A stretch of DNA of 64,000 nt from NCBI GenBank assembly GCA_946414595.1, contig CAMKPE010000010.1, forward strand, positions 134 to 64,133, given 5' to 3'. The translations under genes and the position numbers were made by a program. Positions 10,071 through 50,639 of this stretch are shown one piece after another. Each line of letters starts with the position of its first letter. The stretch's first letter is position 1. This DNA is from an uncultured Clostridium sp. (GTDB lineage: Bacteria > Bacillota_I > Bacilli_A > RF39 > UBA660). Under the pieces are notes generated by a model. It was not told the DNA's origin, made no database searches, and was given only the letters and a program-made list of their open reading frames with translations.

Positions 10071-11056
10071 TAGAACTTATAATCTAATTTAACTGCTGTT
10101 ACAATGTATAACGCATTATCCCAGTGGTGAGAACAAGTTTGCAATACAAGTATTTCTGATTCAGCATTTATACTTATATTTCTTGATTGAACAGGACTAT
10201 TAGTAATTGCATTAAAGTGATCAATAAAGTCTTGTCCAGTTAAATCAACTTTCATATGTTCACCATTAGTCTCTGATATTTCTTTAATTGATTTTATCTC
10301 ATATAAAGCTTTTCCACCTTCATATTGGAATATTATATATGGATGTGAATCAAAGAATTCTTTATCAAGAAACTTCTCAAGTTTTAAGAATGCTACTTTT
10401 ATATTTGTATCTCTTGTATTATGTCCATATATATTAATTTGTTTACTAGTAGGTTTAACTCTATAATCTAAAAATTCGGTTCCTCTTATATCATATTCTT
10501 TATCAACTGAATGTGTTAAGTAATAAGAATTATCATTTGATTGTGCTACTAATACGTTAAATAATTCAGGTATTTCAAGTCTTCCAACTATTTGATTATT
10601 GTTATGTTTCTTTCTTTCTGCTGCTATATCTATATCTTCAGCAAGTTTAAACTTAAAGCCATTAACAGTAGCATCTTCAGTTTCAGTACTTAACTCAGAT
10701 GGTGTTGGTTTATAAATGTCTGGTTCCGGTGGTTCTGGTTTAGGGCTAAAGTAATCTACTGCAAATACAATTGCTGATGCAACTAATACAAGCGAAAATA
10801 TTATATACATAATTATTTTAGTCTTGTTAGTTTTTTTCTTTTTCTTGTTAATAGGAGGCATATATCCCCCACCCATATTTGGATTAGGATTATAACCATT
10901 CATCCCTGGATTATAATTATTATTCATTCCCATATTATTACCACTAGTATTTAAAGGGAATGTATTATGACAATAAGTACAATTAGCCTGTTGACTATAA
11001 ATGTCAGTAACTACTTTTGCACCACATTGAGGACATACTACTTCCATATATCTCAT
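10070..11056 (-). CDS. Class B sortase-like transpeptidase fused to an N-terminal cytoplasmic zinc ribbon, an Asn/Gly/Pro-rich linker, a poly-Lys stretch and one TM helix.
   Basis: SrtB-like blocks YYLTHSVDKEYDIRGTEFLDYR, INIYGHNTRD (catalytic His) and ILVLQTCSHH (TLxTC Cys). N-terminus CPQCG...CTYCHN zinc ribbon. No Arg after the TLxTC block. Start chosen at MRYMEVV, which has an AGGAG RBS. Confidence 0.65.
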   Translation of the reverse strand: MRYMEVVCPQCGAKVVTDIYSQQANCTYCHNTFPLNTSGNNMGMNNNYNPGMNGYNPNPNMGGGYMPPINKKKKKTNKTKIIMYIIFSLVLVASAIVFAVDYFSPKPEPPEPDIYKPTPSELSTETEDATVNGFKFKLAEDIDIAAERKKHNNNQIVGRLEIPELFNVLVAQSNDNSYYLTHSVDKEYDIRGTEFLDYRVKPTSKQINIYGHNTRDTNIKVAFLKLEKFLDKEFFDSHPYIIFQYEGGKALYEIKSIKEISETNGEHMKVDLTGQDFIDHFNAITNSPVQSRNISINAESEILVLQTCSHHWDNALYIVTAVKLDYKF

Positions 11057-11103
11057 ATAATCATCTCCTATTATATATTTTAATTGTATCATAATTTATA
11101 AAA

Positions 11104-11167: not shown

Positions 11168-14100
11168 TTAGAAAAACATTGAAGTATTAGAATTTTCTTC
11201 TTTATTTGTTTCTTCTTTTACTTCTTTTTTCTTTTCGCCTTTTTCTTCATCTTCTTCTTTGTCTTCTTTATCACCAACTAATCCAGTTAATCCTAATCCT
11301 GCTGCACCTGCTGCTAATCCTGCTAGAGCACCAAGGGCTGCTGAACTTTGTCTAGTTTCCCCATTTATATTATACATAGCATCAAGTCCAGTATGTGGTC
11401 CATTTCCATCATAACCTCCATATCCTCCATATCCACTATCAGATGAATAAGAATCTGTAAACCATGGATTTGGATTATATGTTCTTGGTTCTGTTGAAAT
11501 TGTTGGAGTTCCAGAACGTCCTTCTGTACCTTGTTCTATTCCACTTTCTGTTTGTCTCTCAGAATGACTTTCAGTATGACTTTCAGTTCCTGGTTCTCCA
11601 GTTCCTCTTTCAGTGCTTCTTTCAGTACTTCTTTCAGATCTTCTCTCAGTACTTCCTTCAGTACTTCCTTCAGTACTTACTTCAGTACTTGTTTCTCCAG
11701 TTTTTCTCTCTGTACTCTTTTCACTACTTTGTTCAGATGTTCTTTCAACAGACTTAACTTCAAAATGATCAGGAATTGAAGAATATTCTTCTGGGAATAT
11801 TTCTCTTGCATAACCTATTGGAACGATTTCTCTTTGATCCCAAATAGTTACATCTGTACCTATCTTCTTTCCAGTTCTATCGAAGCACGCTACTCTTATT
11901 GTTCCTGTTAATGGATCAAATTCTCCAGTTACTGCATATATGTATCCATGTGCATCATCGTGAAGAATAACATCTCCTACTTTATAATCAATTACTACAC
12001 TGTGTCCACTTTCATCGACGCCATAATATCCATGCAGTGGCGTTATAACCGGCATCTGCGAGTAATCTTCAAATAATTTAATTACACTATCGTGACTCGA
12101 CGCATCACCATGAAGCAATAACGAATCTTTACTTTCAATCCATGAAGATCTATCCTCTAAATTAACTCCACGCCTATTTTTGAATCCATCTCCTACGAAG
12201 AATGATTCAAATGTATTTAGAGTTTGTTCAAAACTTACTATTTTATAATATTTATCAAGCATTTCTAAAAAGTCATCATTACATTTTTCTTGTTGAGGAA
12301 TAATATAATTGTTTATAAGATGTTCTTTTGCTTTTTCCAAATTATTTTTTTCTTTTAGTTTTGTCTCTACAGTAATATTATCTCTATTCCAGTCTTGAAC
12401 TCTTAAAGTATAATCACTGTCAGTTTCATCATCTTTTTGTACTGGCTTACTACCCACTTTTTCTTTTGCTTGATTATATGCTTTTGTTGCGTCAGATAAT
12501 AATCTTTCTAATTCACGCAAGTTACATCCCCATGAAGCTGCTCCAGCCGATGTTAAATAAGTTACGTCACTAGGGCAACCATCTACTAGAGAATAATCTT
12601 TATCTCCAATCCCCTGTCCTTTTAAATGGAATAATCTATCTTCTGAAGCCTTTAATGTAATAAGACAATCACATAACTCATCCAAAGATTCACATGCAGG
12701 TTTTAATGCGCTTTCTATATTTCCCATTGTTACTTCGAACTTACCTATTATAGTTTCAATGGCTTCTTTTTCGCTTTTACTTGCGCTACCTTCCCATCTT
12801 TGAAATTTTTCATGTGCAAGTTGAACTTGTTTCTTAAGTTCCTCAACTTCTTCCATTAAGTCATTTACAGTATAACCCCATTTTTTTTCATCAGGGAGTC
12901 CTAATTCTTTATATTTTTGTTCATAAATTGTACCATAAAAGTATTTATCTGGATATTGTTCTCCAAATTCATATCCATTTGCCTTCAAGCTATCAACCAT
13001 TAACTTCAAATCAGATACATTATACTGCCCAGTTGCTGCATATGTTGCTATATAGTCAATTGGACTAAACTTACTTGAACTAGTTCTTCCTAAAGGATTT
13101 CCAGTAACTTGCATTATTTCAAGTAGTCTTTCATTATTTGCTAATGTTGTTCTTTGAGCATTAGCACCCCCACTAGTTATTCCTGCATCGTATGATCCTG
13201 CTTCCTTTGCAGTACCATCCTTGTTCATATTTCCAAACGCACCCCATCCAGCATTATCACTACCTGTCGTTTGGGTTACGTGTGTTTCATGCATATATTC
13301 ATCATGCACATCAGGTCTATCTACTGATCCTACACCATTTTCTTTATTTATTGCTTCTGTTGCCCATGGCATTACAGAATCAGCACTTATTCTATCTCTT
13401 TCTTCACTACCTGAAACTTTATCTGGATCTAATCTATGTGTTGCTAGCAATTTTGCTTTTTCTTCTTCTGGTAATGAACTAAAATTATATTCTCTTTCTA
13501 AATAAGCTTCTAACCCTTCTTGTTTATCAAAATATCTAATTGGTTGATTTTGACCATTTGAATCTTTTTCATATTTTAACACATACGATCCATGCTCTTC
13601 AGATGCAGCTTCATTATTAGACAAAGCAACATATCCATCTGTTTTAATATGGTAATTGTCATGTCCTACTGCACGAATATTCGTTGCTATTGCTTCTGAT
13701 CTTCCAACAGTATCTGTTAATTGCATTATTGGATCATCCGGATTATCAGAATGTAATTCTGTTATAGTTGCACCTGTGATAGGATTTTTATGATCAGTAT
13801 CAGTAATAGCAAATAATGCATAATTGCCATCTTCATCTGGTAATATTTGTCCTTCTAATGGTTCCCCACCATCAACATAATATGTAACACGTCCCAAAAA
13901 AGTACGACCATCGCTAAATTTATAAGCACCTGAATCTCTCTCCCAAGAAGAACCATTAAATCTAATTCCTGGATAACCATGAGCCGAATATACCGTAGCA
14001 GAATCGTCAAATCTTGCAGTTCCTTTGACTTCAGTAAAAGCCGTTATATGTGCCTTTGAAGGGTCAATAGGACCAGTAGACTCACCAATTGGTTGCAACT

Positions 14101-14485
14101 CATAAGAGTTTTGTCCCTCTTTTTTTACAATAATACCTTCATGTGTAACTCCATCGCCCAATTGATATTCTACTCTTCCAGTATAATGCTCTACGCCATC
14201 ATCATTCCAACACTCATCAAAGTTAGCCCAAGTAGCACGAGTATATAATACTGGAAAAGCATTTCCAGATTGAATCCCAAAATTAGCTCCTGTTCCTCTT
14301 GAATCATCAATAATATCATATACATGCGTATCAGTACTATTTGCAGCAGTTGGATCAAAGCTCATCCTTGTTGATTCATCTCCAACCATTGCTCCAGGAA
14401 CTGGTCCTGAACCTGCCATTGGATCTGTTACTATCATTTCAGTATCTTCAGTTGTTGTAGTTATGGTTTCATCACTCATAACCAC
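11168..14485 (-). CDS. Giant paralog A, 1105 aa. Large secreted or surface protein of unknown function.
   Basis: Shares long conserved blocks with 14601..18245. Central WxG-like helix QRWEGSASKSEKEAIETIIGKFE. STE/TEGS tandem-repeat linker. C-terminus ...NGPHTGLDAMYNINGETRQSSAALGALAGLAAGAAGLGLTGLVGDKEDKEEDEE. Own promoter, strong RBS aggaggtgtggtt, own terminator. Confidence 0.7.
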   Translation of the reverse strand: MVMSDETITTTTEDTEMIVTDPMAGSGPVPGAMVGDESTRMSFDPTAANSTDTHVYDIIDDSRGTGANFGIQSGNAFPVLYTRATWANFDECWNDDGVEHYTGRVEYQLGDGVTHEGIIVKKEGQNSYELQPIGESTGPIDPSKAHITAFTEVKGTARFDDSATVYSAHGYPGIRFNGSSWERDSGAYKFSDGRTFLGRVTYYVDGGEPLEGQILPDEDGNYALFAITDTDHKNPITGATITELHSDNPDDPIMQLTDTVGRSEAIATNIRAVGHDNYHIKTDGYVALSNNEAASEEHGSYVLKYEKDSNGQNQPIRYFDKQEGLEAYLEREYNFSSLPEEEKAKLLATHRLDPDKVSGSEERDRISADSVMPWATEAINKENGVGSVDRPDVHDEYMHETHVTQTTGSDNAGWGAFGNMNKDGTAKEAGSYDAGITSGGANAQRTTLANNERLLEIMQVTGNPLGRTSSSKFSPIDYIATYAATGQYNVSDLKLMVDSLKANGYEFGEQYPDKYFYGTIYEQKYKELGLPDEKKWGYTVNDLMEEVEELKKQVQLAHEKFQRWEGSASKSEKEAIETIIGKFEVTMGNIESALKPACESLDELCDCLITLKASEDRLFHLKGQGIGDKDYSLVDGCPSDVTYLTSAGAASWGCNLRELERLLSDATKAYNQAKEKVGSKPVQKDDETDSDYTLRVQDWNRDNITVETKLKEKNNLEKAKEHLINNYIIPQQEKCNDDFLEMLDKYYKIVSFEQTLNTFESFFVGDGFKNRRGVNLEDRSSWIESKDSLLLHGDASSHDSVIKLFEDYSQMPVITPLHGYYGVDESGHSVVIDYKVGDVILHDDAHGYIYAVTGEFDPLTGTIRVACFDRTGKKIGTDVTIWDQREIVPIGYAREIFPEEYSSIPDHFEVKSVERTSEQSSEKSTERKTGETSTEVSTEGSTEGSTERRSERSTERSTERGTGEPGTESHTESHSERQTESGIEQGTEGRSGTPTISTEPRTYNPNPWFTDSYSSDSGYGGYGGYDGNGPHTGLDAMYNINGETRQSSAALGALAGLAAGAAGLGLTGLVGDKEDKEEDEEKGEKKKEVKEETNKEENSNTSMFF
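11560..11700 (-). repeat. In-frame 15-nt tandem repeats (ttcagtacttcc-like units) encoding the S/T/E/G-rich linker (STEGSTEGSTER...) of giant paralog A.
   Basis: Directly visible near-perfect tandem repeats of cagtacttccttcag units. Confidence 0.6.
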
Positions 14486-14567
14486 ACCTCCTAACTATTA
14501 ATTATTATAGTATTAACATATTATTACTATTTTCTATATCATATACATTGTATCATAATTTAGCAAA

Positions 14568-14597
14568 AGAAAAAATCCTTATTTCTAAGGATTTTTA
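14568..14597. terminator. Hairpin terminator identical to 11104..11132, downstream of giant paralog B.
   Basis: Same aaaaaatcctta-tttc-taaggattttt sequence. A-run and T-run on opposite sides. Confidence 0.55.
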
Positions 14598-14600
14598 TCT

Positions 14601-17600
14601 TTATTGATTATTTCCGAATGTTGTTTTATCAACATTTTGAGGTTTATCTTCAACTTCGATTGGGTGGTTTAGAGAAAACATTGGAGTTTCATCCTTTACT
14701 TCTTCTTTTTTCTCTTCTTTACCTTCCTCTTCGTCTTCTTCTTTATCCTCTTTATTGTCAACTAATCCAGTTAATCCTAAACCAGCTGCTCCAACCGCTA
14801 ATCCAGCAAGTGCTCCTAAACCAGCAGTGCTTTGTTTAGTTTCACCATTTGTATTATACATAGCATCAAGTCCAGTATGTGGTCCACCACCCCAGCTACC
14901 TGTTTCAGGTTCTGTGAATATTGGATGTGGAGCATATGTCTTATGCTCTGTTGGTTGTTCTGTTGGCCTATCTGTTGGTTGTTCTGTTGGTGCATCAGTT
15001 GGTCTATCTGTTGGTTGCTCTGAAGGTTTTTCAGTTGGTTTTTCAGTTGGTTTTTCTGTACCATGTGAAGTTGGTGCTTCAGTACCATGACCATGAGTTT
15101 TTCTCTCTGTCTTTCTTTCTGTATTCTTTTCAGGTTCAGAAACTGTCTCTGGTTCAGTCTCAAAGAAGTTATCTGGAATTGATGAATATTCTTCATCAAA
15201 GTCTCTAACATAACGAATTGGAACGATTTCTCTTTGATCCCAAATAGTTACGTCAGAACCAATCTTTCTACCTGTCTTATCGAAACATGCAATTCTTATT
15301 GTACCAGTTAATGGATCGAATTCTCCAGTAACTGCATAATAATATCCATGTGCATCATCGTGAATTAATACGTCACCAATCTTATATGGAACTATTGTAC
15401 TATGACCGTCTTCCCCAGCAGCATAGTAACCAGAAATTGGTGTAATAACCGGCATGCTCGAGTAATCTTCGAACAGCTTGATAATACTGTCGTGGGTCGG
15501 GTCGTTGTCGTCCAGATGGGTGAGCATCGAGTCTTTGCTTGAAATCCAAGAGCTTCTGTCTTGTAATGTAACTCCACGCTTGTTCTGGAATCCAGAACCA
15601 ACGAAGAATGATTCAAATGTATTAAGTGTTTGTTCAAAGTTAGTAATCTTATGATATAGTTCAATAACTGACATAAGTACACCATCACAAACAGTTGCTT
15701 GAGCTTCAATTAAAGCATCTACTTGTGTTTGTGCTGCCTGATACATGTGAACTTCTTTCAATTTATTTTCAGCTTCAGTTTTCCTAGATTGCCACTGCGA
15801 ATGTTGAGTATTATAACTTCTTAAACTTGCCTGATAAGTAGAATCTGGTTCAGTTGCTCCTTGAGTTGGTCTTATAGGTTCAGGACCAACTAGGTTAGAT
15901 AATCTTTGATAATCTTGTGAAGCATTATTTACGGCTTCTACTAATTCACGTTGATTCTTATTAACTGAAGCAGTTTCTCCATCGTATGATACTGTAATAG
16001 CACCATCAGGTAATCCATTACTTGGTGAAGTAGCTCCACCATCTCCTACAGAATATCCTTTAATAGCATATAACTTAGTTTCTTCTTTCTTCAAGTTTTC
16101 AAGTTCTGTACATAATTCTGTTAAAGCTTCACAAGCTGGTAATAATGATTCTCTAATGTTACCCATTGTAACTTCAAATTTACCAATGATAGTTTCAATA
16201 GCTTCTTTTTCACTATTACTTGCAGTTCCTTTCCATGAAAGGAATTTATCGTGAGCTGCTTTAGCATATTGTGCAAGTTCTTCAACTTCCGCTGCTAAAT
16301 CTTCAGCAGTATATCCCCATTGTGGTTCTCCTGGTAATCCTAATTGCTTATATTTTTGTTCATATGTTGTACCAAAGAAGTAACGTGCAGGGTGTGCTTC
16401 AAATTGAACACCATTTTGCTCTAATGCATCAACCATCAATTGTAAGTCATGTGCATTATATTGACCAGTTGCTGCATATGTAGCTATATAATCAAGTTTA
16501 CTAAATTTACTTGTATCTGTATTTCCTAAAGGGTTTCCAGTAGTACTTAGTATCTCTCCTAATCTACTATTATTATATAATGTTACTCTTGTAGCATTTG
16601 TTCCAGTAGTAACTCCTGGAGTAGATCCATTTGCTTTACCAGTTTCGGCATCCATATTACCAAATGCTCCCCAACCAGCATCATCACTACCTGTTGTTTG
16701 AGTAACGTGTGTTTCATGCATGTATTCATCATGCATATCAGGTCTATCTACTGATCCAACACCATTTTCTTTAGCAATTGCTTGTGTAGACCATGGCATT
16801 ACTGAATCAACGTCCATTTGACCATTTGGATGTGCATCTACTTTAGTTGGATCAACTTTTAAAGAATTCTTAACTGCCTCTTGTTCTTCTGGGCTCATGC
16901 TCTCTAAATCGTATCCAGCAAGATATGCGTCTAAGTCAGCTTGACTTTGGAAATATTTAACTGTATGAGTTTGTCCTGATGCATCAGTTTCTGTTAATGC
17001 AACATATTTTCCATGTGTACCAGCAGTTTCATTATTAGATAATGCTCTATAACCATCAGTTTTAATATGATAATCATCATGTCCAACTCCAGTTACATCA
17101 GAAACTTGTACTTGTGACTGATCTATTACATTTCCTTGAGCATCTTTTAATACTGTTATTGCATTATCTGCATTTTCATTATGTAAAACTGTTACTGTTG
17201 CCCCATCTACTGGGTTAGCTTGTGCAGTATCAGTTGCATCATATAACTTATATTCTCCAGTAGCAGGATCTTTTACGATAATACCATCGTGTGTTACTGT
17301 TGTAGTTACACCATCTTGTGTAACAGTTGTTGTATAAGTAACTTTTCCTTCGAATGCTGCTCCATCCTTAGTACCAGATGCAGTCCAGTTTCTACCATCG
17401 AATGTTACTCCACTACCAAGTTCAACATCCATGTCGTAAACAACTTTACCTTCACGACCTGTATATGCAGTAATTTTAGCTCCTGTTACTGTAGCACCAC
17501 TTGCATCTTGTAATTCGTAAGTTCCAGTTGGAGTCTTTACGATTTGACCCTCGTGTTCCCCACCATTAGAATCTGTATATTTAACAGGTCCTACATATTT

Positions 17601-18245
17601 TTCTTCACCTGGATTTTGTGAAGCCTGGCTATCTGGAACCCAAGTAGAATCAAAATCGACTTGATCTACATTTTCTGAATATGTTACATGATATGCATTA
17701 CCATCTTCTGGTTTTAATGTTTGTGGATTATTTCCCATTGCAGTATTTATATCATATGTATAAGTATCTGTTGTAACAGCTCCTTCTACTGTAATACCAC
17801 TTGCATTCATTGCTGGCCCTTCAAACACAGTAGAATCTGCTGTTGTAGTTGCTCCTGCTGTTGTTGTAGGATCAACAGTTACAGTTGGATCTGCTGTTCC
17901 ACTTCCTGTTGGGTCAACAGTTACAACCGGATCAGTTACCGGTGGCGTAGATGAAGCAGTTGTTGGTGCTTGCCACGCAGGTGGATTATCAGTGAAACTA
18001 CTACCATTTGTTTTAATACTTTCATGAGCTGCATTACTTCCTGCATCTAAAGATGTCCAGTTATAGCAAGCAGAACCATCAGTAGTTAAATAAGTTCTTG
18101 CATCTTGGATTGCTTGTGATAAATTACCACTATAATGTGTATCATTTTCAAAAAGCCAATGTCCCATTGCAATTGCAGCTGATTCTTGTGTTGAACAATG
18201 ACTTCCTTGAGTCATCCAAACCCAATCCCAATAATTATTTGCCAT
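14601..18245 (-). CDS. Giant paralog B, 1214 aa. Large secreted or surface protein of unknown function. Last gene of the 372aa-WXG-WXG operon.
   Basis: Paralogous to 11168..14485. Has a T/P-rich linker, WxG-like helix FLSWKGTASNSEKEAIETIIGKFE, a P-T-E-K/Q-P repeat linker, and C-terminal GGPHTGLDAMYNTNGETKQSTAGLGALAGLAVGAAGLGLTGLVDNKEDKEEDEEE. RBS aaagggggacctacaat ATG 17 nt after the stop of the WXG-like gene. Confidence 0.7.
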   Translation of the reverse strand: MANNYWDWVWMTQGSHCSTQESAAIAMGHWLFENDTHYSGNLSQAIQDARTYLTTDGSACYNWTSLDAGSNAAHESIKTNGSSFTDNPPAWQAPTTASSTPPVTDPVVTVDPTGSGTADPTVTVDPTTTAGATTTADSTVFEGPAMNASGITVEGAVTTDTYTYDINTAMGNNPQTLKPEDGNAYHVTYSENVDQVDFDSTWVPDSQASQNPGEEKYVGPVKYTDSNGGEHEGQIVKTPTGTYELQDASGATVTGAKITAYTGREGKVVYDMDVELGSGVTFDGRNWTASGTKDGAAFEGKVTYTTTVTQDGVTTTVTHDGIIVKDPATGEYKLYDATDTAQANPVDGATVTVLHNENADNAITVLKDAQGNVIDQSQVQVSDVTGVGHDDYHIKTDGYRALSNNETAGTHGKYVALTETDASGQTHTVKYFQSQADLDAYLAGYDLESMSPEEQEAVKNSLKVDPTKVDAHPNGQMDVDSVMPWSTQAIAKENGVGSVDRPDMHDEYMHETHVTQTTGSDDAGWGAFGNMDAETGKANGSTPGVTTGTNATRVTLYNNSRLGEILSTTGNPLGNTDTSKFSKLDYIATYAATGQYNAHDLQLMVDALEQNGVQFEAHPARYFFGTTYEQKYKQLGLPGEPQWGYTAEDLAAEVEELAQYAKAAHDKFLSWKGTASNSEKEAIETIIGKFEVTMGNIRESLLPACEALTELCTELENLKKEETKLYAIKGYSVGDGGATSPSNGLPDGAITVSYDGETASVNKNQRELVEAVNNASQDYQRLSNLVGPEPIRPTQGATEPDSTYQASLRSYNTQHSQWQSRKTEAENKLKEVHMYQAAQTQVDALIEAQATVCDGVLMSVIELYHKITNFEQTLNTFESFFVGSGFQNKRGVTLQDRSSWISSKDSMLTHLDDNDPTHDSIIKLFEDYSSMPVITPISGYYAAGEDGHSTIVPYKIGDVLIHDDAHGYYYAVTGEFDPLTGTIRIACFDKTGRKIGSDVTIWDQREIVPIRYVRDFDEEYSSIPDNFFETEPETVSEPEKNTERKTERKTHGHGTEAPTSHGTEKPTEKPTEKPSEQPTDRPTDAPTEQPTDRPTEQPTEHKTYAPHPIFTEPETGSWGGGPHTGLDAMYNTNGETKQSTAGLGALAGLAVGAAGLGLTGLVDNKEDKEEDEEEGKEEKKEEVKDETPMFSLNHPIEVEDKPQNVDKTTFGNNQ
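14935..15060 (-). repeat. In-frame 12-nt tandem repeats (tctgttggttgt-like) encoding the P-T-E-(K/Q)-P linker of giant paralog B.
   Basis: Visible tandem repetition gttggttgttctgttggcctatctgttggttgttctgttggtgcatcagttggtctatctgttggttgctc. Confidence 0.6.
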
Positions 18246-18262
18246 ATTGTAGGTCCCCCTTT

Positions 18263-18595
18263 CTAGCTATTAACATCTAGATTTTCAGCAAACTCTTCAA
18301 CGTTCTTGTTGATTTCTTCATTTACTAATCTATAGTCTTCTTTTGTTTTATTTAAAAATCTAATATAAATATCTAATGAATTTTCGATAGGATCATAATT
18401 TCCGTTAAGGATCTTATACTTTTCATACATGCTTCTTTGAGCTTGTCCTGTCCAAGTATCTGTCGCATTAACTTTTTCAGCATTTTGTTTTTGATTTGCA
18501 AAAACATCTTTCAACTTCATATATGAATTTGTTAATTCTGTAATTGTTTCTTCAAATTCACTAAAGTTGTTGATCTTCAAGTTCTGATTCGACAT
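18263..18595 (-). CDS. WXG100-like small helical protein, 110 aa (ATDTWTGQAQRSMYEKY). Candidate EsxB/Lap-type helper.
   Basis: Central W-x-G motif in a helical, acidic protein of about 100 aa. Strong RBS gaaggagg. 35-nt overlap with the upstream WXG gene. Confidence 0.55.
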   Translation of the reverse strand: MSNQNLKINNFSEFEETITELTNSYMKLKDVFANQKQNAEKVNATDTWTGQAQRSMYEKYKILNGNYDPIENSLDIYIRFLNKTKEDYRLVNEEINKNVEEFAENLDVNS

Positions 18596-18899
18596 AATTG
18601 ATAGCCTCCTTCTTTAACTCATTTCCACCTTCATCATCTTTTTCATCATAAAGGTTATTTGTTTCATTAACTGTATTAGAGATTTCTCTCATTGCTTGAG
18701 GAAGCTTTTTCATTTTCATTAAGTAGTTGTAGAAGTTGTTGCAGAATGTTTCTGCATCTTCTCCTTCCCAGTTTTCTCTTAACTTTTCAATGTTTGCAAG
18801 CATCTTCTCGATTTCTTCATCGAAATCAACACCGTCTTTGTCAATGGCATCTCTAACGTTTCCTAATTCTTCAGGATTAACTTTTAATACTCCGTCCAT
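18561..18899 (-). CDS. WXG100 family protein, EsxA-like. 112 aa.
   Basis: LKVNPEELGNVRDAID...LRENWEGEDAETF aligns with the S. aureus EsxA MSPEEIRAKS...ANWEGQAFSRF WXG core. RBS aggtga. Confidence 0.65.
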   Translation of the reverse strand: MDGVLKVNPEELGNVRDAIDKDGVDFDEEIEKMLANIEKLRENWEGEDAETFCNNFYNYLMKMKKLPQAMREISNTVNETNNLYDEKDDEGGNELKKEAINYVESELEDQQL

Positions 18900-18916
18900 A
18901 CATTATCACCTATCCT

Positions 18917-44287: not shown

Positions 44288-44312
44288 ATTAATTCAATCT
44301 AGTTTTTTTCAT
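44280..44312. terminator. Bidirectional hairpin aactagattaa-ttcaa-tctagtt with A-run and T-run.
   Basis: Lies between convergent HIT gene (+) and the 268-aa gene (-). Confidence 0.5.
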
Positions 44313-45095
44313 TCCACTTACAATTATAAATTTATTAGCAAGTACTGCTGCTTCTTTTAATATTTCTCTTGTGAAATCAGATATTTCTTCATCTGAAATA
44401 GGAAACTCTATTCCTCTTGTCATCATCTCTGCACATATTGCAGTAAACTCTAATGAAAGATATTTTTTCTTTCCTTCTAATGCAGTTTCATAATCTTCCA
44501 TTCCTTCATACATTTCTGTACAATTTGATTCATGAATAATATCTTGAAGTATTCTATAATACTCATTAAGTGCTAAAGGATTAGAAAGCAATCCGAAGTT
44601 GCTTTCAGGAGTACTTAACTCTTCTAAGTTTCTTGTTTCTCCAGCAAAATAATTTCTTAAAATCATTGATTGAGTAGCTCTTAAATTAATATATTTATGT
44701 AAAGAATCTTTAGTATCTTTATCTAGTTTATTACTCTTACAAAACCATAAATACACAGCATATAAGAATTTATTATTTTCTTCTTCAAAGACTGTTTCTT
44801 TAAATTTTTCTCTATAAGTATTTGAAAGCAAGAAACATAAAGTTGATCTATCAAATGTTTCTTCATCAGCTTCTTCATGACCGCTCATTATGATAGACAT
44901 TAACTCTTCTTGTGGATAATTTTCTAACATATAATCTACTAAAGCATTAGTACATAAAAATACATTCCTATATTTTTCTTTTAAATCATCACTTACTATT
45001 CCTTTTTTTTCATCTTCTTCAATTGCTTTATCAATAAGTAATCGTTCTTCTTTAACTAGATTTAAAACGTTGTTAATAAACTCTTCCATACACAA
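44289..45095 (-). CDS. Hypothetical acidic cytoplasmic protein, 268 aa. Lies downstream of the DGWTGI paralog array.
   Basis: ORF only. Confidence 0.4.
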   Translation of the reverse strand: MCMEEFINNVLNLVKEERLLIDKAIEEDEKKGIVSDDLKEKYRNVFLCTNALVDYMLENYPQEELMSIIMSGHEEADEETFDRSTLCFLLSNTYREKFKETVFEEENNKFLYAVYLWFCKSNKLDKDTKDSLHKYINLRATQSMILRNYFAGETRNLEELSTPESNFGLLSNPLALNEYYRILQDIIHESNCTEMYEGMEDYETALEGKKKYLSLEFTAICAEMMTRGIEFPISDEEISDFTREILKEAAVLANKFIIVSGMKKTRLN

Positions 45096-45181
45096 CTACC
45101 CCCAAAATTGTTTTTTATTATATAATATTAAGAATTATAAGTCAAAAAAATAACCCATTTCTGAGTTATTTATATTTTTAG

Positions 45182-45811
45182 TTAAGCAGCCATTACATTT
45201 TCGGCTTGTTGTTTTCCTAGCATTATATTATTAGTTTCTTCTTCGATTGCTTTATTTAATACAGTTTCAATAGTACTTAATTCATTTCTAATGTAAATTA
45301 TACTTTTATCAATCATTTTTTTGTATTCTGCTTGTAAGTCACCAGCTGGATCAAACATTGAAAAATTCATTGGTACTCCATCTAAATCGGCTTCTACTGC
45401 TTTCATTTTATCATGAAAATCATTCAATGCAACTTTAACTAAAGCAACATTCATACCTTTTAATCCATCTTTTTCTGATTGTAGCTTATCAAAAAAATAA
45501 TGTCCATGCCATAAAGTATAATCATATTCAAATTCTGCTCCATTATATTTGGCCATAAACGATGCAGCTTTTGCGGCACTCATTAAAATGTTGTTATGAC
45601 AATTATTTAATTCTTCCTCGAATCCTTCTAGTGAAACTATTTGTTGATTAAAATCTACTGCTTTTTCTGATGCCCATACTAGAGACAAGTTACTAGTAAA
45701 CTTAATTGCTCCTTGAACATACTTGCTTTTGATTTGTTTCATTGCATCTTTAAAAGCATCTAATTGTTTTTGTACATCACTAATGTTAATTCCTGTCCAT
45801 CCATCTCCCAT
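45182..45811 (-). CDS. DGWTGI paralog 1, about 209 aa. Start at MGDGWTGINISD.
   Basis: N-terminus MGDGWTGI, C-terminus MLGKQQAENVMAA. Strong RBS taaggaggtatatat before the ATG at 45811. The ORF-track upstream extension is probably spurious. Confidence 0.6.
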   Translation of the reverse strand: MGDGWTGINISDVQKQLDAFKDAMKQIKSKYVQGAIKFTSNLSLVWASEKAVDFNQQIVSLEGFEEELNNCHNNILMSAAKAASFMAKYNGAEFEYDYTLWHGHYFFDKLQSEKDGLKGMNVALVKVALNDFHDKMKAVEADLDGVPMNFSMFDPAGDLQAEYKKMIDKSIIYIRNELSTIETVLNKAIEEETNNIMLGKQQAENVMAA

Positions 45812-45928
45812 AATATATACCTCCTTAATTATAAAATATAGATTAACATCTACTTTTATTATCATATATATGTAGTCATTTGCAAAGAAAATTAAAACAA
45901 CCCATGTAAATGAGTTGTCTATTAACAA

Positions 45929-45960
45929 TTTTACTAAGCTGTAAGTTGTGATTCTGCTTG
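45929..45960 (-). terminator. Hairpin acaactcat-ttac-atgggttgt plus T-run after paralog 2.
   Basis: Near-identical in sequence to the terminator after paralog 3. Confidence 0.5.
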
Positions 45961-46566
45961 TTGTTTTCCTAACATTACATTTAATTCTTCAGTTTCAAAT
46001 GCAGCTTTTGCATCATTAACTGCAGATGATACTGCATTACTAATCAATAATATTAATTGATTAACCATTCTTTTATATTCTGTTTGTAATGTACCATCTG
46101 GGTCTAATAATGAAAAATCTGTTGGTACTTCAATTAATCTTTCAATCAATGATGTTGTGCTTTCTTTAAACGCATCTACTGACATTTTAGCAAGTACAAC
46201 ATTCATACCTGTAATTCCATCCTTAACATCTTCTAACATCTTAGCATCACCTTCTCCTGAAGGTCTTGTACCTACATCGTAACTAAATGATGCGCCATTA
46301 TGTTGAGCCATAAAATCTGCTGCTCTACTAGCGGAATAAAGAACATCCCAGGCACATCTTCCAATGTCTAAACCTAATGTTGCTAAATTTTTTATATGAG
46401 CATTATAAGCAATTGCTTTTTCTGAAGCCCAAGTACGATATAGTTCTTCGTTAAATAAACTAAAAGCAGTTTGATAATTATTTGCAATTTCATCCATTAC
46501 ACTTTTAAAATTATCTAATTGACTTTTTACAGCATCTAAATTTATTCCTGTCCATCCATCTCCCAT
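45934..46566 (-). CDS. DGWTGI paralog 2, 210 aa.
   Basis: MGDGWTGINLDAV...MLGKQQAESQLTA. RBS aggaggtatttttt. Confidence 0.65.
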   Translation of the reverse strand: MGDGWTGINLDAVKSQLDNFKSVMDEIANNYQTAFSLFNEELYRTWASEKAIAYNAHIKNLATLGLDIGRCAWDVLYSASRAADFMAQHNGASFSYDVGTRPSGEGDAKMLEDVKDGITGMNVVLAKMSVDAFKESTTSLIERLIEVPTDFSLLDPDGTLQTEYKRMVNQLILLISNAVSSAVNDAKAAFETEELNVMLGKQQAESQLTA

Positions 46567-46595
46567 AAAAAATACCTCCTATATTATTTATCTAA

Positions 46596-46680
46596 TAACA
46601 TTATCTTACAATAATTATAATTTGTAAAGTTTTTCTAATAATAAAAACAACCCATATACATGAGTCGTCTTATTTTTGTA
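46596..46680 (-). terminator. Hairpin aagacgactcat-gtat-atgggttgtttt plus T-run after paralog 3.
   Basis: G-U-containing stem. Motif aaaacaacccat..atgag shared with 45929..45960. Confidence 0.45.
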
Positions 46681-46681
46681 A

Positions 46682-47308
46682 TTATGCTGAAAGTACTTGT
46701 TCTGCTTGTACTTTTCCTAATCTAATGTTCATTGTTTCTTCATCAAATGCTTTTTCTAAATCTTTAGTTGCACCTTCAAGTAAATATTCTACATGTGAAA
46801 TAGCTGAATTAACCATTTCAACATATTGTGCTTTTATTTCTCCTGCTGGATCATACAAAGCAAAATCAAGTGGAATATCACGTAAATCATTTAAAACAGA
46901 ATTAACACTATCAGTAAAAGCATTTAATGCCATTTTTGCTAATGGAACATTCATTCCTATAGTGCCATCTTTGTCTTCTAACAATCTAACTGGTTCAATT
47001 GAACTAGTTATTTCTTCATAAGTGAATGTGTGATTTACTCCATTGTATCTAGCCATAAAAGATGCGGCTGTGCTTGCTGCTTGTAATACGTTATTAGCTG
47101 CATAATCAATTAAGTTTTCTAATGCTAAGTTAACAATATATGGATTAAATTCTACTGCTTTTGGTGAAGCCCAAGTACGATATAAACTGTCATTAAATAA
47201 TTCAAATGCTGTTTTAAAATTATTATACGCCCTATTCATTCCATCTCTAAAATTAGATATTTGATTCTCTACTGTTTCGACATCTATTCCTGTCCATCCA
47301 TCTGCCAT
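46682..47308 (-). CDS. DGWTGI paralog 3, 208 aa.
   Basis: MADGWTGIDVETV...RLGKVQAEQVLSA. RBS aggaggatagatt. Confidence 0.65.
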   Translation of the reverse strand: MADGWTGIDVETVENQISNFRDGMNRAYNNFKTAFELFNDSLYRTWASPKAVEFNPYIVNLALENLIDYAANNVLQAASTAASFMARYNGVNHTFTYEEITSSIEPVRLLEDKDGTIGMNVPLAKMALNAFTDSVNSVLNDLRDIPLDFALYDPAGEIKAQYVEMVNSAISHVEYLLEGATKDLEKAFDEETMNIRLGKVQAEQVLSA

Positions 47309-47408
47309 AATCTATCCTCCTCTACTATCATTTAAATTATTATATATCTTAATTATCATACAGGTATTATATTTTGTAAACATAAATCTATTATTTCAGT
47401 GTAAACAA

Positions 47409-47432
47409 AAAGTAAGTCATATGACTTACTTA
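47409..47432 (-). terminator. Hairpin aagtaagtca-tatg-acttactt plus T-run after the small-peptide genes.
   Basis: Perfect 10-bp inverted repeat. Confidence 0.45.
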
Positions 47433-47516
47433 GTAGCAAAAAGATCCATGTAATATAATTGAGAGTAATATATAAACTACTACAATTACCAAGAATCCAT
47501 TATTATCGTTTTGCAA
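47430..47516 (-). CDS. Micro-ORF, 28 aa, TTG start. (M)QNDNNGFLVIVVVYILLSIILHGSFCY. YjcZ-like hydrophobic sporulation-type peptide.
   Basis: GGAGGG RBS 7 nt before TTG. Single hydrophobic helix. Resembles YjcZ-family peptides. Below the ORF-track length cutoff. Confidence 0.4.
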   Translation of the reverse strand: MQNDNNGFLVIVVVYILLSIILHGSFCY

Positions 47517-47528
47517 GATTATCCCTCC

Positions 47529-47609
47529 TTAAATCCAGGCACCTAGAATAATTACTAGTAAAACGAATAATACTAAAACAATTGCAGAAGATGAAGTATT
47601 ATTATTCAT
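47529..47609 (-). CDS. Micro-ORF, 26 aa. MNNNTSSSAIVLVLFVLLVIILGAWI. YjcZ-like hydrophobic sporulation-type peptide.
   Basis: GGAGG RBS ggaggactaaatt before ATG. Hydrophobic core AIVLVLFVLLVIILGA closely resembles the YjcZ family FALIVVLFILLIIVGA core. Confidence 0.5.
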   Translation of the reverse strand: MNNNTSSSAIVLVLFVLLVIILGAWI

Positions 47610-48745: not shown

Positions 48746-49231
48746 TTACTTTATTTTTTTTATACCCAAAACTTTGACCATCTTTTCTTTTGGTTTTCTT
48801 CTTTCTAAATATCTATTAATAAATGTATCTAAACTAACTAAGTCATTAAGATTTTTAATAACTATATCTATTTCTTTATCATTAATATATTTACTTCTAT
48901 TTAAAAAATATTTATATTTCTTTGGATTTATCCCCACTACTTTCTTAAAAGTTTCAGAGTAATATTCAATTGAATTAAATCCATGATCAAGAGCAATACT
49001 TAAAACATAATTATCATATTTATAATCAGATAAGCTTTTAAATACTTTTACTCTATTTATATAATCAAATATAGATAGACCTATTTCTTTTTTAAATTTC
49101 TTCATTATATAGGTTTTATCATAATAAAAAAGATTAGATAAAAGAGTTATATTTATCTCTTTATATATGTTTTTATTTATATATTCTAATATGTCGCAAA
49201 TAAGATTATTTGAATACATAATAATCACCAA
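48746..49231 (-). CDS. Short AraC-family HTH transcriptional regulator.
   Basis: Two HTH units ...FKKEIGLSIFDYINRVKVFKSL... and ...LSIALDHGFNSIEYYSETFKKVVGINPKKY. Confidence 0.65.
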   Translation of the reverse strand: MVIIMYSNNLICDILEYINKNIYKEINITLLSNLFYYDKTYIMKKFKKEIGLSIFDYINRVKVFKSLSDYKYDNYVLSIALDHGFNSIEYYSETFKKVVGINPKKYKYFLNRSKYINDKEIDIVIKNLNDLVSLDTFINRYLERRKPKEKMVKVLGIKKIK

Positions 49232-49316
49232 TTACTATTATAACACAAAATGCCATTATTGTTTAACTGAAATAATAAAAAGAGTATTATTATATATGCA
49301 TGAAAGGAGTGATAGT

Positions 49317-50639
49317 ATGTCATATGCAAGATGGGCAACTAAAGAAGAAGTAGTTGAAGCAACTACAAAATTAACTAAGGGGGATATTTCTAAGTCAGGA
49401 ATTCAAGTAATGTATGATGAAGATAGTCTATATGTAGATAGTAGAGAAATTCACAATCTAATCATTGGTTCTACGGGATCAGGCAAAACACAGACAACTG
49501 TACTTCCACAATTATATACATCAATAATGGCTAATGACTCATTTATAGTAAATGATCCAAGAGGAGAAATCTATGAAAAAATGAGTGGTTTAGCAAATCA
49601 AAATGGATATAAGATAAATGTATTAAATTTCCAAGATCCTTCAAAAGGAAACAATTTTAATCCATTACACTTACCATATAAATTATATAAGAGTGGAAAT
49701 ATTGATGCAGCTATTGAAATGTTAGAAGATATTGGATATTACATTATTTGCGAAGATCATAAAACTGATGCTGATCCATTCTGGGAAAACTCTGCCACTA
49801 CTCTATTTACAGGTCTTGCTTTATACTTATTTGAAAAAGCAAATGCTGAAGCAATTAACTTAAATAGTATAGTAAGCTTAAGTACTAAAATTGAAGAAGT
49901 AGTAAAAGAAGTTAAAGAAATGGATAAGAATTCATTAATCTATAGTACACTTGCTGCAATAGTAAATGCTCCAAAAGAAACATTTACATCAATAGTAGCA
50001 GTATTCATTCAAAAAGCTAGATTAATAACTTCAAGAGAATCAATTTCTAAAATATTATGTAACGATAATATGGATTTAGAAAATATTAAAAAGGATAAAA
50101 CAGCAATATTCGTCATCGGAGATGGAAGATACTCAAATGTTATATTCCCAATGCTAATAAACGAAGTATTTAAGATGATAGATATCAACAACTACAAAGA
50201 AAGAAGATTAAATATCATCTTAGATGAATTTGATTCATATAAACCAATTAAAAACTTCAACAATATGCTTTCAGTATCAAGAAGTTTAAATATTAGATTT
50301 AATATCTTTATTCAAAGTATTCTTGAACTTGAATATGTATATGGTAAAAAAGAAGCTGAATTCATTAAAATGTGCTTTGGAAATATTTACTACTTACTTG
50401 CAAACGATTATGAGACATTAGATTACATTTCTAACTTATGTGGAAGATCATCAGAAAACGAAATGCTTGTTACAAGAGAAGATCTAAAGACTCTTAAACC
50501 ATTTGAAGTAATAATAATTAAAATAAGAATGTACCCAATAAAAACTAAATTGTTACCTTACTTTGAATTAAAGATTGAAGATATAGCCCCACTAGAAATG
50601 AAAAATCTAGAATATACAAACATAGTTATTTACAAATAA
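49317..50639 (+). CDS. Orphan TraG/VirD4-like (T4SS-DNA_transf family) ATPase lacking an N-terminal TM domain. 440 aa.
   Basis: Walker A IIGSTGSGKTQT followed by VNDPRGE. Walker B/DExx ILDEFDS. C-terminal FIQSILELEYVYGKKEAEFIKMCFGNIYYLLAN matches the coupling-protein QS..QL...YG block. Start at MSYARW with a gaaaggag RBS. Confidence 0.6.
   Translation: MSYARWATKEEVVEATTKLTKGDISKSGIQVMYDEDSLYVDSREIHNLIIGSTGSGKTQTTVLPQLYTSIMANDSFIVNDPRGEIYEKMSGLANQNGYKINVLNFQDPSKGNNFNPLHLPYKLYKSGNIDAAIEMLEDIGYYIICEDHKTDADPFWENSATTLFTGLALYLFEKANAEAINLNSIVSLSTKIEEVVKEVKEMDKNSLIYSTLAAIVNAPKETFTSIVAVFIQKARLITSRESISKILCNDNMDLENIKKDKTAIFVIGDGRYSNVIFPMLINEVFKMIDINNYKERRLNIILDEFDSYKPIKNFNNMLSVSRSLNIRFNIFIQSILELEYVYGKKEAEFIKMCFGNIYYLLANDYETLDYISNLCGRSSENEMLVTREDLKTLKPFEVIIIKIRMYPIKTKLLPYFELKIEDIAPLEMKNLEYTNIVIYK

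What the first reader, a model, noticed from the sequence alone, without database searches (positions are those of the whole stretch)
45182..47308. Tandem array of three DGWTGI paralogs, each with its own RBS and near-identical terminator
Three consecutive genes encode about 208-aa acidic, probably all-helical cytoplasmic proteins. They begin M(G/A)DGWTGI(N/D), share internal blocks (LYRTWAS.KA, DG(I/L)(T/K)GMNV.LAKM, F(S/A)L(L/Y)DP(D/A)G) and end (M/R)LGK(Q/V)QAE. An N-terminal W-T-G motif is unusual. Each copy has a strong AGGAGG RBS and a conserved 3' hairpin (aaaacaacccat..atgag..gtc), so the duplication unit includes the terminator. I do not recognise the family.
Basis: seen in the sequence. 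Interest (0 to 1): 0.65.

Follow-up and report, generated by a model that had tools for sequence, protein, structure and literature searches.

The report
Three tandem double-hairpin WXG-like genes
Three neighbouring genes encode diverged copies of an unannotated acidic helical protein from uncultured low-GC gut or rumen bacteria; each copy is an internal duplication of an ESAT-6/WXG100-like hairpin and probably travels through a type VII-like secretion route, which is not shown.

Summary
Three minus-strand genes (46682-47308, 45934-46566, 45182-45811) encode 208-210 aa acidic paralogs that are 41-45% identical. Each has a sigma-A-like promoter, an AGGAGG ribosome-binding site and a homologous hairpin terminator.

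No Pfam, NCBIfam or PHROG model matches. An exhaustive profile search still finds about 380 cluster representatives, mostly 205-230 aa.

Fetched relatives come from uncultured Bacilli/Clostridia assemblies with 25-27% GC. They often lie in tandem arrays of two or three, with no conserved neighbour.

New findings:
- The protein is an internal repeat. Residues 2-33 match residues 114-145 (hhalign P=3.5e-6).
- AlphaFold2 gives a confident four-helix bundle made of two hairpins.
- The invariant Trp46 sits in the first turn.
- The first unit aligns in register with WXG100/ESAT-6 proteins. This signal is weak but reproducible.

Supporting context:
- The window itself holds a bona fide WXG100 gene cluster.
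- One relative sits beside an ESAT-6-like operon.
- Some relatives carry variable C-terminal tails.

Best reading: a single-chain "double WXG" protein, likely a type VII secretion substrate or targeting module. Export is inferred, and no EssC gene was seen. I rate it a new variant of a known kind, of moderate interest.

The parts
46682..47308 (-). Copy 1 CDS, 208 aa (MADGWTGID...RLGKVQAEQVLSA); equals P0006
   Evidence: AF2 pLDDT 87.8; orthologue 71% identical in the syntenic locus L009
45934..46566 (-). Copy 2 CDS, 210 aa; equals P0001
   Evidence: AF2 pLDDT 91.4, pTM 0.84
45182..45811 (-). Copy 3 CDS, 209 aa from the ATG at 45811; equals P0005
   Evidence: the longer TTG ORF to 45928 overlaps copy 2's terminator and is spurious
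47352..47380 (-). Sigma-70-like promoter of copy 1 (TTTACA, 17 nt, GATAAT)
46600..46628 (-). Sigma-70-like promoter of copy 2 (TTTACA, 17 nt, GATAAT)
45858..45886 (-). Sigma-70-like promoter of copy 3 (TTTGCA, 17 nt, GATAAT)
47316..47321 (-). AGGAGG ribosome-binding site of copy 1
   Evidence: read from the sequence
46575..46580 (-). AGGAGG ribosome-binding site of copy 2
45820..45825 (-). AGGAGG ribosome-binding site of copy 3
46644..46671 (-). Intrinsic terminator hairpin plus U-run after copy 1
   Evidence: -11.4 kcal/mol, z -3.8
45895..45920 (-). Intrinsic terminator hairpin plus U-run after copy 2, homologous to that of copy 1
   Evidence: -10.7 kcal/mol, z -4.0
45148..45171 (-). Shorter homologous terminator hairpin plus U-run after copy 3
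   Evidence: -8.6 kcal/mol, z -3.6

Best explanation
The locus is a tandem array of three old paralogs. Each is an independent, probably strongly expressed sigma-A-type transcription unit.

Each protein is about 23 kDa, acidic and lacks a signal peptide. It arose by internal duplication of a helix-turn-helix unit:
- Unit A: DG[WF]TG.N, helix 1, invariant W-A-S turn, helix 2.
- A linker of about 30 residues.
- Unit B: DG..GMN, helix 3, (F/Y)DP.G turn, then a long helix 4 ending in LGKQQAE or LAKQQAT.

The two hairpins pack antiparallel into one elongated four-helix bundle. This is a single-chain mimic of the EsxA/EsxB-type WXG100 dimer.

I infer that the bundle is the unit recognised by a type VII-like secretion ATPase. 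The Trp turn and the conserved C-terminal tail would lie side by side as the recognition surface. The proteins would then be exported as abundant extracellular or surface factors.

In relatives the same module carries variable C-terminal tails, so there it would act as an N-terminal targeting domain, as LXG and PE/PPE domains do.

Shown here: the array anatomy, the family and its distribution, the internal repeat, the predicted fold, and a weak in-register similarity to WXG100/ESAT-6. Inferred: homology to WXG100, export by a T7SS, and any extracellular role.
For: Array and regulatory anatomy.

The family is real and sizeable. It has 379 representatives at E<=1e-3 and 296 at E<=1e-10, mostly 205-230 aa. 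The consensus is conserved from the first to the last residue.

Internal repeat: residues 2-33 align with residues 114-145. hhalign gives probability 87.6%, P=3.5e-6 and score 32.8, against 9.7+-1.7 (maximum 16.1) for 100 column shuffles.

Predicted fold: two AlphaFold2 models (pLDDT 87.8 and 91.4, pTM 0.80 and 0.84) give helices 10-45, 49-89, 123-145 and 159-209. Trp46 lies in the first turn. Beta-bridges link residues 46-47 to residues 112-121, which places the start of unit B beside turn A.

Similarity to WXG100:
- hhalign of the family against a WXG100 alignment pairs residues 1-59 with 1-58 and Trp46 with Trp44. P=0.0031 and score 23.1, against shuffles of 11.0+-2.0 (0 of 200 reach it) and 14.9 for the reversed alignment.
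- The N-half profile searched against 177,635 PDB sequences ranks M. tuberculosis ESAT-6 second and third. Residues 31-94 align with 27-89 and Trp with Trp, at E=0.5.
- Pfam WXG100 matches one member at E=0.0025 and the family consensus at E=0.0075, in register.

Conserved positions: W46 in 98 of 98 sequences, S48 in 96, A51 in 98, an aromatic residue six positions after each turn (F54, Y/F162), and G7/G118.

Context:
- The same window carries a bona fide WXG100 gene (PF06013, 37 bits; S. aureus EsxA 2VS0 at E=1.9e-4) followed by giant tail-anchored proteins.
- In L007 two family genes lie divergently beside three ESAT-6-like small genes and an ORF of at least 1144 aa.

Some relatives carry variable Gly/Ser/Asn-rich or amphipathic C-terminal tails after the module: P0011, P0022, P0023, P0124, and the genes in L014 and L015.

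The proteins are acidic with no signal peptide or transmembrane segment, like the window's WXG100 proteins.
Against: - No curated model reaches threshold.
- With only three PDB EsxA sequences as the template, the hhalign match is not significant: score 12.2, reached by 38 of 150 shuffles.
- The motif is W-x-S, not W-x-G.
- The WXG100 C-terminal pattern HxxxD/ExxhxxxH (PMC3935865) is not conserved.
- Unit B alone shows no WXG100 signal.
- Foldseek against the PDB finds only generic helix bundles, E>=0.05.
- No EssC or other T7SS core gene lies in the 64 kb window or within 10 kb of the WXG100 cluster in relatives.
- Across nine lineages the family genes sit among housekeeping genes, and no neighbour is shared within 6 kb.
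- Adjacency to ESAT-6-like genes was seen in one lineage only.
Confidence: 0.45

Rival explanations
1. An intracellular four-helix-bundle protein with a structural, storage, stress or regulatory role and no link to secretion. The WXG100 resemblance would be convergence among helical hairpins.
For: There is no signal peptide. Flanking genes in most loci are housekeeping, and no neighbour is conserved. All WXG100 signals are below curated thresholds. Foldseek's best, non-significant hits are Dps/ferritin-type and designed bundles.
Against: - The in-register alignment with WXG100/ESAT-6 places Trp on Trp in two independent searches.
- The nearly invariant residues are Gly, Ala, Ser, Thr, Trp, Met, Asp and Glu (T6, G7, W46, S48, A51, G115, G118, M119, D153, E191). 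They do not form a ferroxidase-type His/Glu set.
- The variable low-complexity C-terminal tails in relatives are typical of exported proteins.
- Conservation of the very first and last residues suggests recognition elements.
Confidence: 0.28
2. A T7SS adaptor or chaperone, analogous to the Lap/WXG100-like partner proteins. It would bind the helical targeting regions of the giant substrates encoded elsewhere in the genome, and would stay in the cell or be co-secreted with them.
For: Candidate T7SS substrates are usually accompanied by small WXG100-related partners (PMC11217815, read). The window encodes giant WXG-associated proteins. L007 places family genes next to such an operon.
Against: Family genes are usually not adjacent to any large substrate gene. 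Known Lap proteins are about 100-130 aa single hairpins encoded immediately upstream of their toxin; this is background knowledge from PMC9600955 and PMC10801868, of which I saw only the abstracts. Some family members carry their own C-terminal tails, which fits cargo better than chaperone.
Confidence: 0.12
3. A sporulation-associated structural protein (coat, crust or forespore), expressed together with the adjacent YjcZ-like peptides.
For: Two YjcZ-like peptide genes lie directly upstream; one gives a weak PF09680 hit at E=0.006. The lineage is a spore former, with SpoVAD, SpoVAC and YqfD in related contigs.
Against: The peptides have their own terminator at 47410-47431. The array promoters match sigma-A consensus rather than the sporulation-sigma consensus, which I recall from memory and did not test. 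No YjcZ-like or other sporulation gene recurs next to family genes in other lineages.
Confidence: 0.08
4. A phage or mobile-element protein, such as a scaffold, tape-measure chaperone or conjugation accessory.
For: A soluble TraG/VirD4-like ATPase gene lies 2 kb away. The proteins are helical and acidic, like scaffold proteins.
Against: There is no PHROG hit and no relative in 2.9 million viral contigs, tested with two profiles. The flanks are chromosomal housekeeping genes, and the position is syntenic in a related species. The TraG-like gene is absent from the other lineages.
Confidence: 0.02

Closest known systems
WXG100 / ESAT-6 family (Pfam PF06013; e.g. S. aureus EsxA 2VS0, M. tuberculosis ESAT-6/CFP-10 3FAV)
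   Same: - Acidic helix-turn-helix hairpin of about 95 residues, with no signal peptide.
- An invariant Trp at residue 45-46 in the turn, followed by x-(G/S)-x2-A-x2-F.
- An N-terminus of the type M-x-G-h-x-h-N-P-E.
- Four-helix-bundle quaternary logic.
- Often monocistronic and multi-copy.
- In-register profile alignments.
   Different: - Two units are fused in one 210-aa chain.
- The turn is W-x-S instead of W-x-G.
- Unit B has lost the Trp, and its turn is DP.G.
- The C-terminal HxxxD/ExxhxxxH pattern is absent.
- No curated model reaches threshold.
- No T7SS core gene was seen nearby.
LXG domain of T7SSb polymorphic toxins (PF04740)
   Same: It is a helical module of about 200 aa. In some relatives the family module sits N-terminal to variable C-terminal regions. 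LXG belongs to the WXG superfamily, according to the Pfam description shown.
   Different: - Most family members (more than 90% of the listed representatives) are the module alone.
- Pfam LXG gives only E of about 0.1 for two long members.
- No adjacent immunity or Lap genes occur in the window.
- No recognisable toxin domain occurs in the tails.
Single-chain or paired ESX substrates of Actinobacteria (EspB, a PE-PPE-like fusion; PE_PGRS/PPE with Gly-rich tails). This comparison is from background knowledge and was not tested.
   Same: The concept is shared: a four-helix bundle made by two hairpins carries a bipartite signal, and it is sometimes followed by low-complexity Gly/Asn-rich tails. 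P0124 has a GGFGSGGGFG... tail.
   Different: No sequence relation was tested or found. The phylum is different, and no YxxxD/E motif occurs at the expected place.

Membership tests
WXG100 (PF06013) | Significant match to the curated family profile | tested here: not met
   The three window proteins give no hit. One of 98 members matches at E=0.0025. The family consensus matches at E=0.0075 and 17 bits, against a cutoff of 27.3.
WXG100 (PF06013) | Helix-turn-helix hairpin of about 100 aa with Trp-x-Gly in the turn | tested here: inconclusive
   The hairpin is predicted, and the invariant Trp46 lies in the turn. The third position is Ser in 96 of 98 sequences, not Gly. Unit B keeps the Gly (G156, 82 of 98) but has no Trp.
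WXG100 (PF06013) | Detectable remote homology by profile-profile or profile-sequence comparison | tested here: inconclusive
   hhalign gives P=0.0031, with 0 of 200 shuffles reaching the score. ESAT-6 ranks second and third in the PDB search at E=0.5. The match is not significant against three PDB EsxA sequences alone.
WXG100 (PF06013) | C-terminal HxxxD/ExxhxxxH pattern (PMC3935865) | tested here: not met
   A regex run over 98 aligned members finds no conserved position in the C-terminal helix.
WXG100 (PF06013) | Genomic association with an EssC/EccC FtsK-SpoIIIE ATPase, and T7SS-dependent secretion | not testable with these tools
   No ORF in the window is large enough to be an EssC apart from two giant proteins, and those have no Pfam ATPase domain. 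A bona fide WXG100 gene is present at 18561-18899. The rest of the genome was not available.
LXG domain (PF04740) | Profile match, plus an N-terminal position ahead of a variable toxin domain with downstream immunity and upstream Lap genes | tested here: not met
   Only faint hits, E=0.09 and 0.12, for P0023 and P0081. The window copies have no C-terminal domain. No Lap-like or immunity-like neighbours are present.
Dps/ferritin-like four-helix bundle | Significant fold match and conserved di-iron/ferroxidase ligands | tested here: not met
   Foldseek gives E>=0.1 and TM 0.27-0.47. The conserved columns are Gly/Ala/Ser/Trp/Met plus one Asp and one Glu, which is not a ligand set.
Phage structural or scaffold families (PHROGs) | Profile match or occurrence on viral contigs | tested here: not met
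   No PHROG hit with E<0.01. No relatives were found in viral contigs.

The most novel reading that the evidence does not exclude
These proteins would define a new, widespread class of type VII secretion substrates in uncultured low-GC gut/rumen Bacillota. The class would be a single-chain 'double WXG' bundle, born from tandem duplication and fusion of an EsxA-like gene and then degenerated asymmetrically: unit A keeps the Trp turn, and unit B keeps the Gly turn and the long C-terminal tail. A covalent chain would thus reproduce the bipartite EsxA/EsxB signal. The module would also be reused as an N-terminal targeting domain for variable tails, in parallel with LXG and PE/PPE. The free N-terminal DG[WF]TG strand could dock onto the unit-B turn of a neighbouring molecule, just as the internal DG..GMN strand docks on the Trp turn. 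That would allow head-to-tail homo- or hetero-oligomers of the paralogs.
Probability: 0.35. Interest if true: 0.6.

Novelty: new variant of a known kind. Interest (0 to 1): 0.42.

Why it matters
T7SS substrates in Bacillota are known mainly as 100-aa WXG100 hairpins, LXG toxins and their small partners.

A sizeable unannotated family would extend that catalogue. It has about 380 clusters at 50% identity and is often multi-copy and strongly signalled for expression. If it is a covalently fused Esx-like dimer, it would:
- add substrates from lineages that are only known from metagenomes;
- offer a natural single-chain model for how the composite signal (Trp turn plus C-terminal tail) is read;
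- deserve a Pfam/NCBIfam model, so that thousands of 'hypothetical proteins' get a meaningful label.

If the T7SS link is wrong, it is still a clean example of an internally duplicated four-helix-bundle family of unknown role in abundant gut/rumen bacteria.

Tried and rejected
- **Curated libraries.** Pfam, NCBIfam and PHROGs on the three proteins, on 98 members and on the family consensus gave only noise from helical families.
- **PDB sequence search.** Profile searches with the whole family found nothing relevant.
- **Word-index homologue searches.** These were very insensitive here, with 5, 10 and 3 hits.
- **Collection scans.** The genome-contig scan with close paralogs found nothing. The narrower profile gave 3 loci. 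The metagenome scan gave 3 short contigs. The viral scans gave none.
- **Exact look-ups.** These failed for P0001, P0002, P0012, P0011 and P0022, so the tailed variants P0011 and P0022 have no genomic context.
- **Guilt by association.** An all-against-all comparison of neighbours within 6 kb in nine lineages found only generic ABC ATPase similarity.
- **Type IV prepilin-like signal.** I considered MDG|FTGL as such a signal and rejected it, because no hydrophobic helix follows.
- **Double-glycine leader.** I considered a leader for the C39 ABC exporter next to the gene in L001/L012. I rejected it because the motif sits at residues 3-7 and the adjacency occurs in one lineage only.
- **Other checks.** The HxxxD/ExxhxxxH motif is absent. 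Unit B shows no significant match to WXG100.
Full report
**1. Observation**

The three genes lie on the minus strand:
- copy 1 at 46682-47308 (208 aa);
- copy 2 at 45934-46566 (210 aa);
- copy 3 at 45182-45811 (209 aa).

The mechanical ORF list extends copy 3 to a TTG at 45928. That extension runs through copy 2's terminator. The ATG at 45811 has the AGGAGG site and restores the MGDGWTGI start.

The proteins are 41-45% identical with 59 invariant columns. The CDSs are 58-62% identical at the DNA level. The proteins are acidic (pI 4.4-4.9), and no 19-residue window is hydrophobic enough for a membrane segment.

Each gene has three regulatory elements:
- A sigma-70-like promoter, TTTACA or TTTGCA, 17 nt spacer, GATAAT.
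- An AGGAGG site 8-9 nt before the ATG.
- A hairpin plus U-run that folds far better than shuffles, at -11.4, -10.7 and -8.6 kcal/mol with z of -3.6 to -4.0.

The three hairpins share the core AACTCA...ATGGGTT(G/A)TTTT. The duplicated unit is therefore a whole transcription unit.

**2. The family**

No Pfam, NCBIfam or PHROG model matches. The word-indexed search found only five proteins.

An exhaustive HMMER search with a six-sequence profile against 1.84 billion representatives found more:
- 379 proteins at E<=1e-3;
- 296 at E<=1e-10;
- 42 at E<=1e-30;
- almost all 205-230 aa.

The consensus is conserved from the first residue to the last:

MDGFTGLNpe.Ak.qI..F ... WASPKAVEF ... A..ANG ... 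nG.vGMNv..VK.aLd.F ... LP..IAFYDPdG.L..aYk ... AiETEtnnIlLAKqqAt.tLsa

The window copies belong to a 'DGWTG' subgroup. The only names any source gives are 'hypothetical protein', from Bacilli bacterium MAGs.

**3. Distribution and context**

The fetched loci have 25-27% GC. They come from uncultured 'Bacilli bacterium' and 'Clostridia bacterium' MAGs and from metagenome scaffolds. The sample labels suggest ruminant gut studies; that is my reading of the labels only.

Tandem arrays recur:
- three copies in L004;
- two in L010, from the same sample as L004;
- two in L007, plus one in L006 from the same MAG;
- two in L016.

Single copies occur in L001/L012 and in L008.

Tandem copies within a genome are 42-64% identical. 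The window's copies are as far from each other as from other DGWTG-type proteins, so the triplication is old.

L009 is a syntenic relative: RecX, a TraG-like gene, AraC and PrsA, then a 71%-identical orthologue of copy 1 at the contig end.

Flanking genes are mostly housekeeping, for example rplL/uvrA, tyrS/rplM and fba/gmk. An all-against-all comparison of neighbours within 6 kb found no shared family apart from generic ABC ATPases. No relatives occur in viral contigs.

**4. Anatomy of the protein**

Two AlphaFold2 models were made: copy 1 with a 6-sequence alignment, and copy 2 with a 15-sequence alignment. Both are confident (pLDDT 87.8 and 91.4, pTM 0.80 and 0.84) and they agree:
- a disordered N-terminus, residues 1-5;
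- helices 10-45, 49-89, 123-145 and 159-209;
- a non-helical stretch, residues 90-122.

The key new result is an internal repeat. Residues 2-33 (DGWTGIDVETVENQISNF...) align with residues 114-145 (DGTIGMNVPLAKMALNAF...). hhalign gives probability 87.6%, P=3.5e-6 and score 32.8. One hundred column shuffles give 9.7+-1.7 with a maximum of 16.1.

The protein is therefore two helix-turn-helix units in tandem.

DSSP shows beta-bridges at residues 46-47, in the W-A of the first turn, and at 112-121, in the DG..GMN start of unit B. From this and the helix lengths I infer three things:
- The hairpins pack antiparallel.
- The start of unit B lies beside turn A.
- The long helix 4 runs back to end near Trp46.

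I could not inspect coordinates, so this geometry is an inference.

**5. Relation to WXG100**

The lead came from the pattern. Trp46 is invariant and sits in a turn. It is followed by S-P-K-A-V-E-F, which resembles W-x-G-x2-A-x2-F. The N-terminus resembles M-x-G-h-x-V-x-P-E-E-L.

The window contains a bona fide WXG100 protein at 18561-18899. It starts MDGVLKVNPEEL and has WEGEDAETF at residues 44-52. It scores 37 bits on PF06013, above the cutoff of 27.3. It matches S. aureus EsxA 2VS0 at E=1.9e-4.

Tests supporting a relation:
- hhalign of the family (98 sequences) against a six-sequence WXG100 alignment gave the predicted register. Residues 1-59 paired with 1-58 and Trp46 with Trp44. P=0.0031 and score 23.1, against 11.0+-2.0 for shuffles (0 of 200 reach it) and 14.9 for the reversed alignment.
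- An N-half profile searched against all PDB sequences ranked M. tuberculosis ESAT-6 second and third of 177,635. Residues 31-94 aligned with 27-89, Trp with Trp, and 'seAa..mA.anG' with 'SEAGQAMASTEG'. E was 0.5.
- Pfam WXG100 matches one member at E=0.0025 and the consensus at E=0.0075, in register.

Tests against:
- With only three PDB EsxA sequences as template, the score is not above shuffles.
- Unit B alone gives nothing.
- The HxxxD/ExxhxxxH pattern of WXG100 C-termini (PMC3935865) is not conserved.
- Foldseek finds no Esx or LXG chain. A two-chain dimer would in any case be invisible to a single-chain search.

I therefore treat WXG100-superfamily descent as likely, about 0.6, but not proven. 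I do not file the family as a member of PF06013.

**6. Links to type VII secretion**

(a) The window carries a WXG100 cluster 27 kb from the array, at 11168-20035 on the minus strand. It consists of:
- a 372-aa protein with a helical N-terminus;
- two WXG100-type genes;
- two paralogous giant proteins of 1214 and 1105 aa.

The giant proteins have an internal W(K/E)G motif and a Gly/Ala-rich C-terminal anchor followed by KEDKEE. The cluster is syntenic in relatives.

(b) In L007 two family genes lie divergently beside three small ESAT-6-like genes (NCBIfam E of about 1e-3 each; my WXG100 HMM E=1e-4 and 2e-3) and an ORF of at least 1144 aa.

(c) Some relatives extend the module with variable tails. 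Examples are the amphipathic Gly-rich 160-180 aa tails of P0011, P0022 and P0023, the GGFGSGGG repeats of P0124, and the Ser/Thr/Asn-rich tails in P0055, L014 and L015. This is the architecture of a targeting domain.

Against this, no EssC-type gene was seen in the window or near the WXG100 clusters of relatives. Adjacency to Esx-like genes occurs in one lineage only.

**7. Mechanism proposed**

An EsxA-like gene duplicated in tandem and fused. The two halves then degenerated in complementary ways. Unit A kept the Trp turn. Unit B kept the Gly turn and the long C-terminal helix with its conserved tail.

The single chain would thus reproduce the four-helix Esx dimer, with its Trp turn beside a C-terminal tail. 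In known systems that composite is the export signal; this is established knowledge for ESX pairs and is summarised in PMC3935865.

The three autonomous transcription units suggest high, separately adjustable expression. The old divergence suggests specialised or hetero-oligomerising paralogs.

Steps shown: the array, the repeat, the fold and the weak WXG100 similarity. Steps inferred: homology, export and any function outside the cell.

Rival readings and my estimates:
- intracellular bundle protein, 0.28;
- Lap-like adaptor, 0.12;
- sporulation protein, 0.08;
- phage or mobile-element protein, 0.02.

**8. Novelty and verdict**

The family has no curated model or name. I found no description of a fused double WXG100 protein of this kind in three literature searches.

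I rate it a new variant of a known kind, the WXG100 superfamily of T7SS substrates. Interest is moderate at 0.42. A T7SS specialist would find it useful rather than astonishing, and the secretion claim is untested.

Noticed in passing
window 11168-20035 (minus strand): This looks like a T7SS-substrate cluster. It holds a 372-aa protein with a helical N-terminus, a low-complexity middle, a Gly/Ala-rich C-terminal anchor and an acidic tail. It also holds a bona fide WXG100 (18561-18899), a second WXG100-like gene (18263-18595), and two paralogous giant proteins (1214 and 1105 aa). The giants have no Pfam domain apart from a single PT disordered-repeat hit in the 1214-aa protein, an internal F.(S/R)W(K/E)G motif and the same C-terminal anchor. 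The cluster is syntenic in relatives L017-L020, which have one giant instead of two. No EssC lies nearby.
   Followed up: partly
window 47430-47609 (minus strand): Two tiny hydrophobic peptides of 26 and 28 aa lie directly upstream of the array and have their own terminator at 47410-47431. The first gives a sub-threshold YjcZ_2 hit (E=0.006); the second gives none. No such peptides occur next to the family in other loci.
   Followed up: partly
window 49167-50639 (+); L009 6667-7989: This is a TraG/VirD4-type coupling-protein homologue (PF02534, E=3e-38) without an obvious membrane anchor. It sits in a chromosomal housekeeping context between an AraC-type regulator and recX. The position is conserved in the related contig L009, where the gene is called at 440 aa, so the real start in the window is probably the MSYARWATKEEV methionine.
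   Followed up: no
window 44289-45095 (minus strand): A 268-aa acidic helical protein with 6 Cys lies immediately after the third terminator. It has a near-consensus promoter (TTGACT, 17 nt, TATAAT). It has no Pfam or PHROG hit, and no homologue lies near the family in other lineages.
   Followed up: partly
L001 10888-13671; L012 965-3850: In one lineage the single family gene is followed by a C39-peptidase ABC exporter and three small genes (135, 48 and 57 aa). This looks like a bacteriocin export locus upstream of rpsU. The adjacency is conserved between two species whose family proteins are 64% identical.
   Followed up: no
L007 2-4324 (minus strand): The operon holds three ESAT-6-like small proteins (107, 104 and 110 aa) followed by an ORF of at least 1144 aa that runs off the contig. 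The large ORF has no Pfam domain. The operon is divergent from two tandem family genes.
   Followed up: partly
window 10070-11092 (minus strand): A 340-aa protein lies just downstream of the giant proteins. It has an N-terminal zinc-ribbon-like CxxC pair, a membrane segment and a C-terminal region containing LQTCS. By eye it resembles a sortase, but this was not tested. The position is conserved in L017-L020 as a 331-aa gene.
   Followed up: no
P0011, P0022, P0023; L014 711-1601; L015 257-1168: Family members carry C-terminal extensions after a conserved ...VGK.EAEEEL.V.PT junction. The tails are unrelated to each other between groups, are Gly/Ser/Asn-rich or amphipathic, and often end in aromatic residues (W, F, or WFN/WND).
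   Followed up: partly
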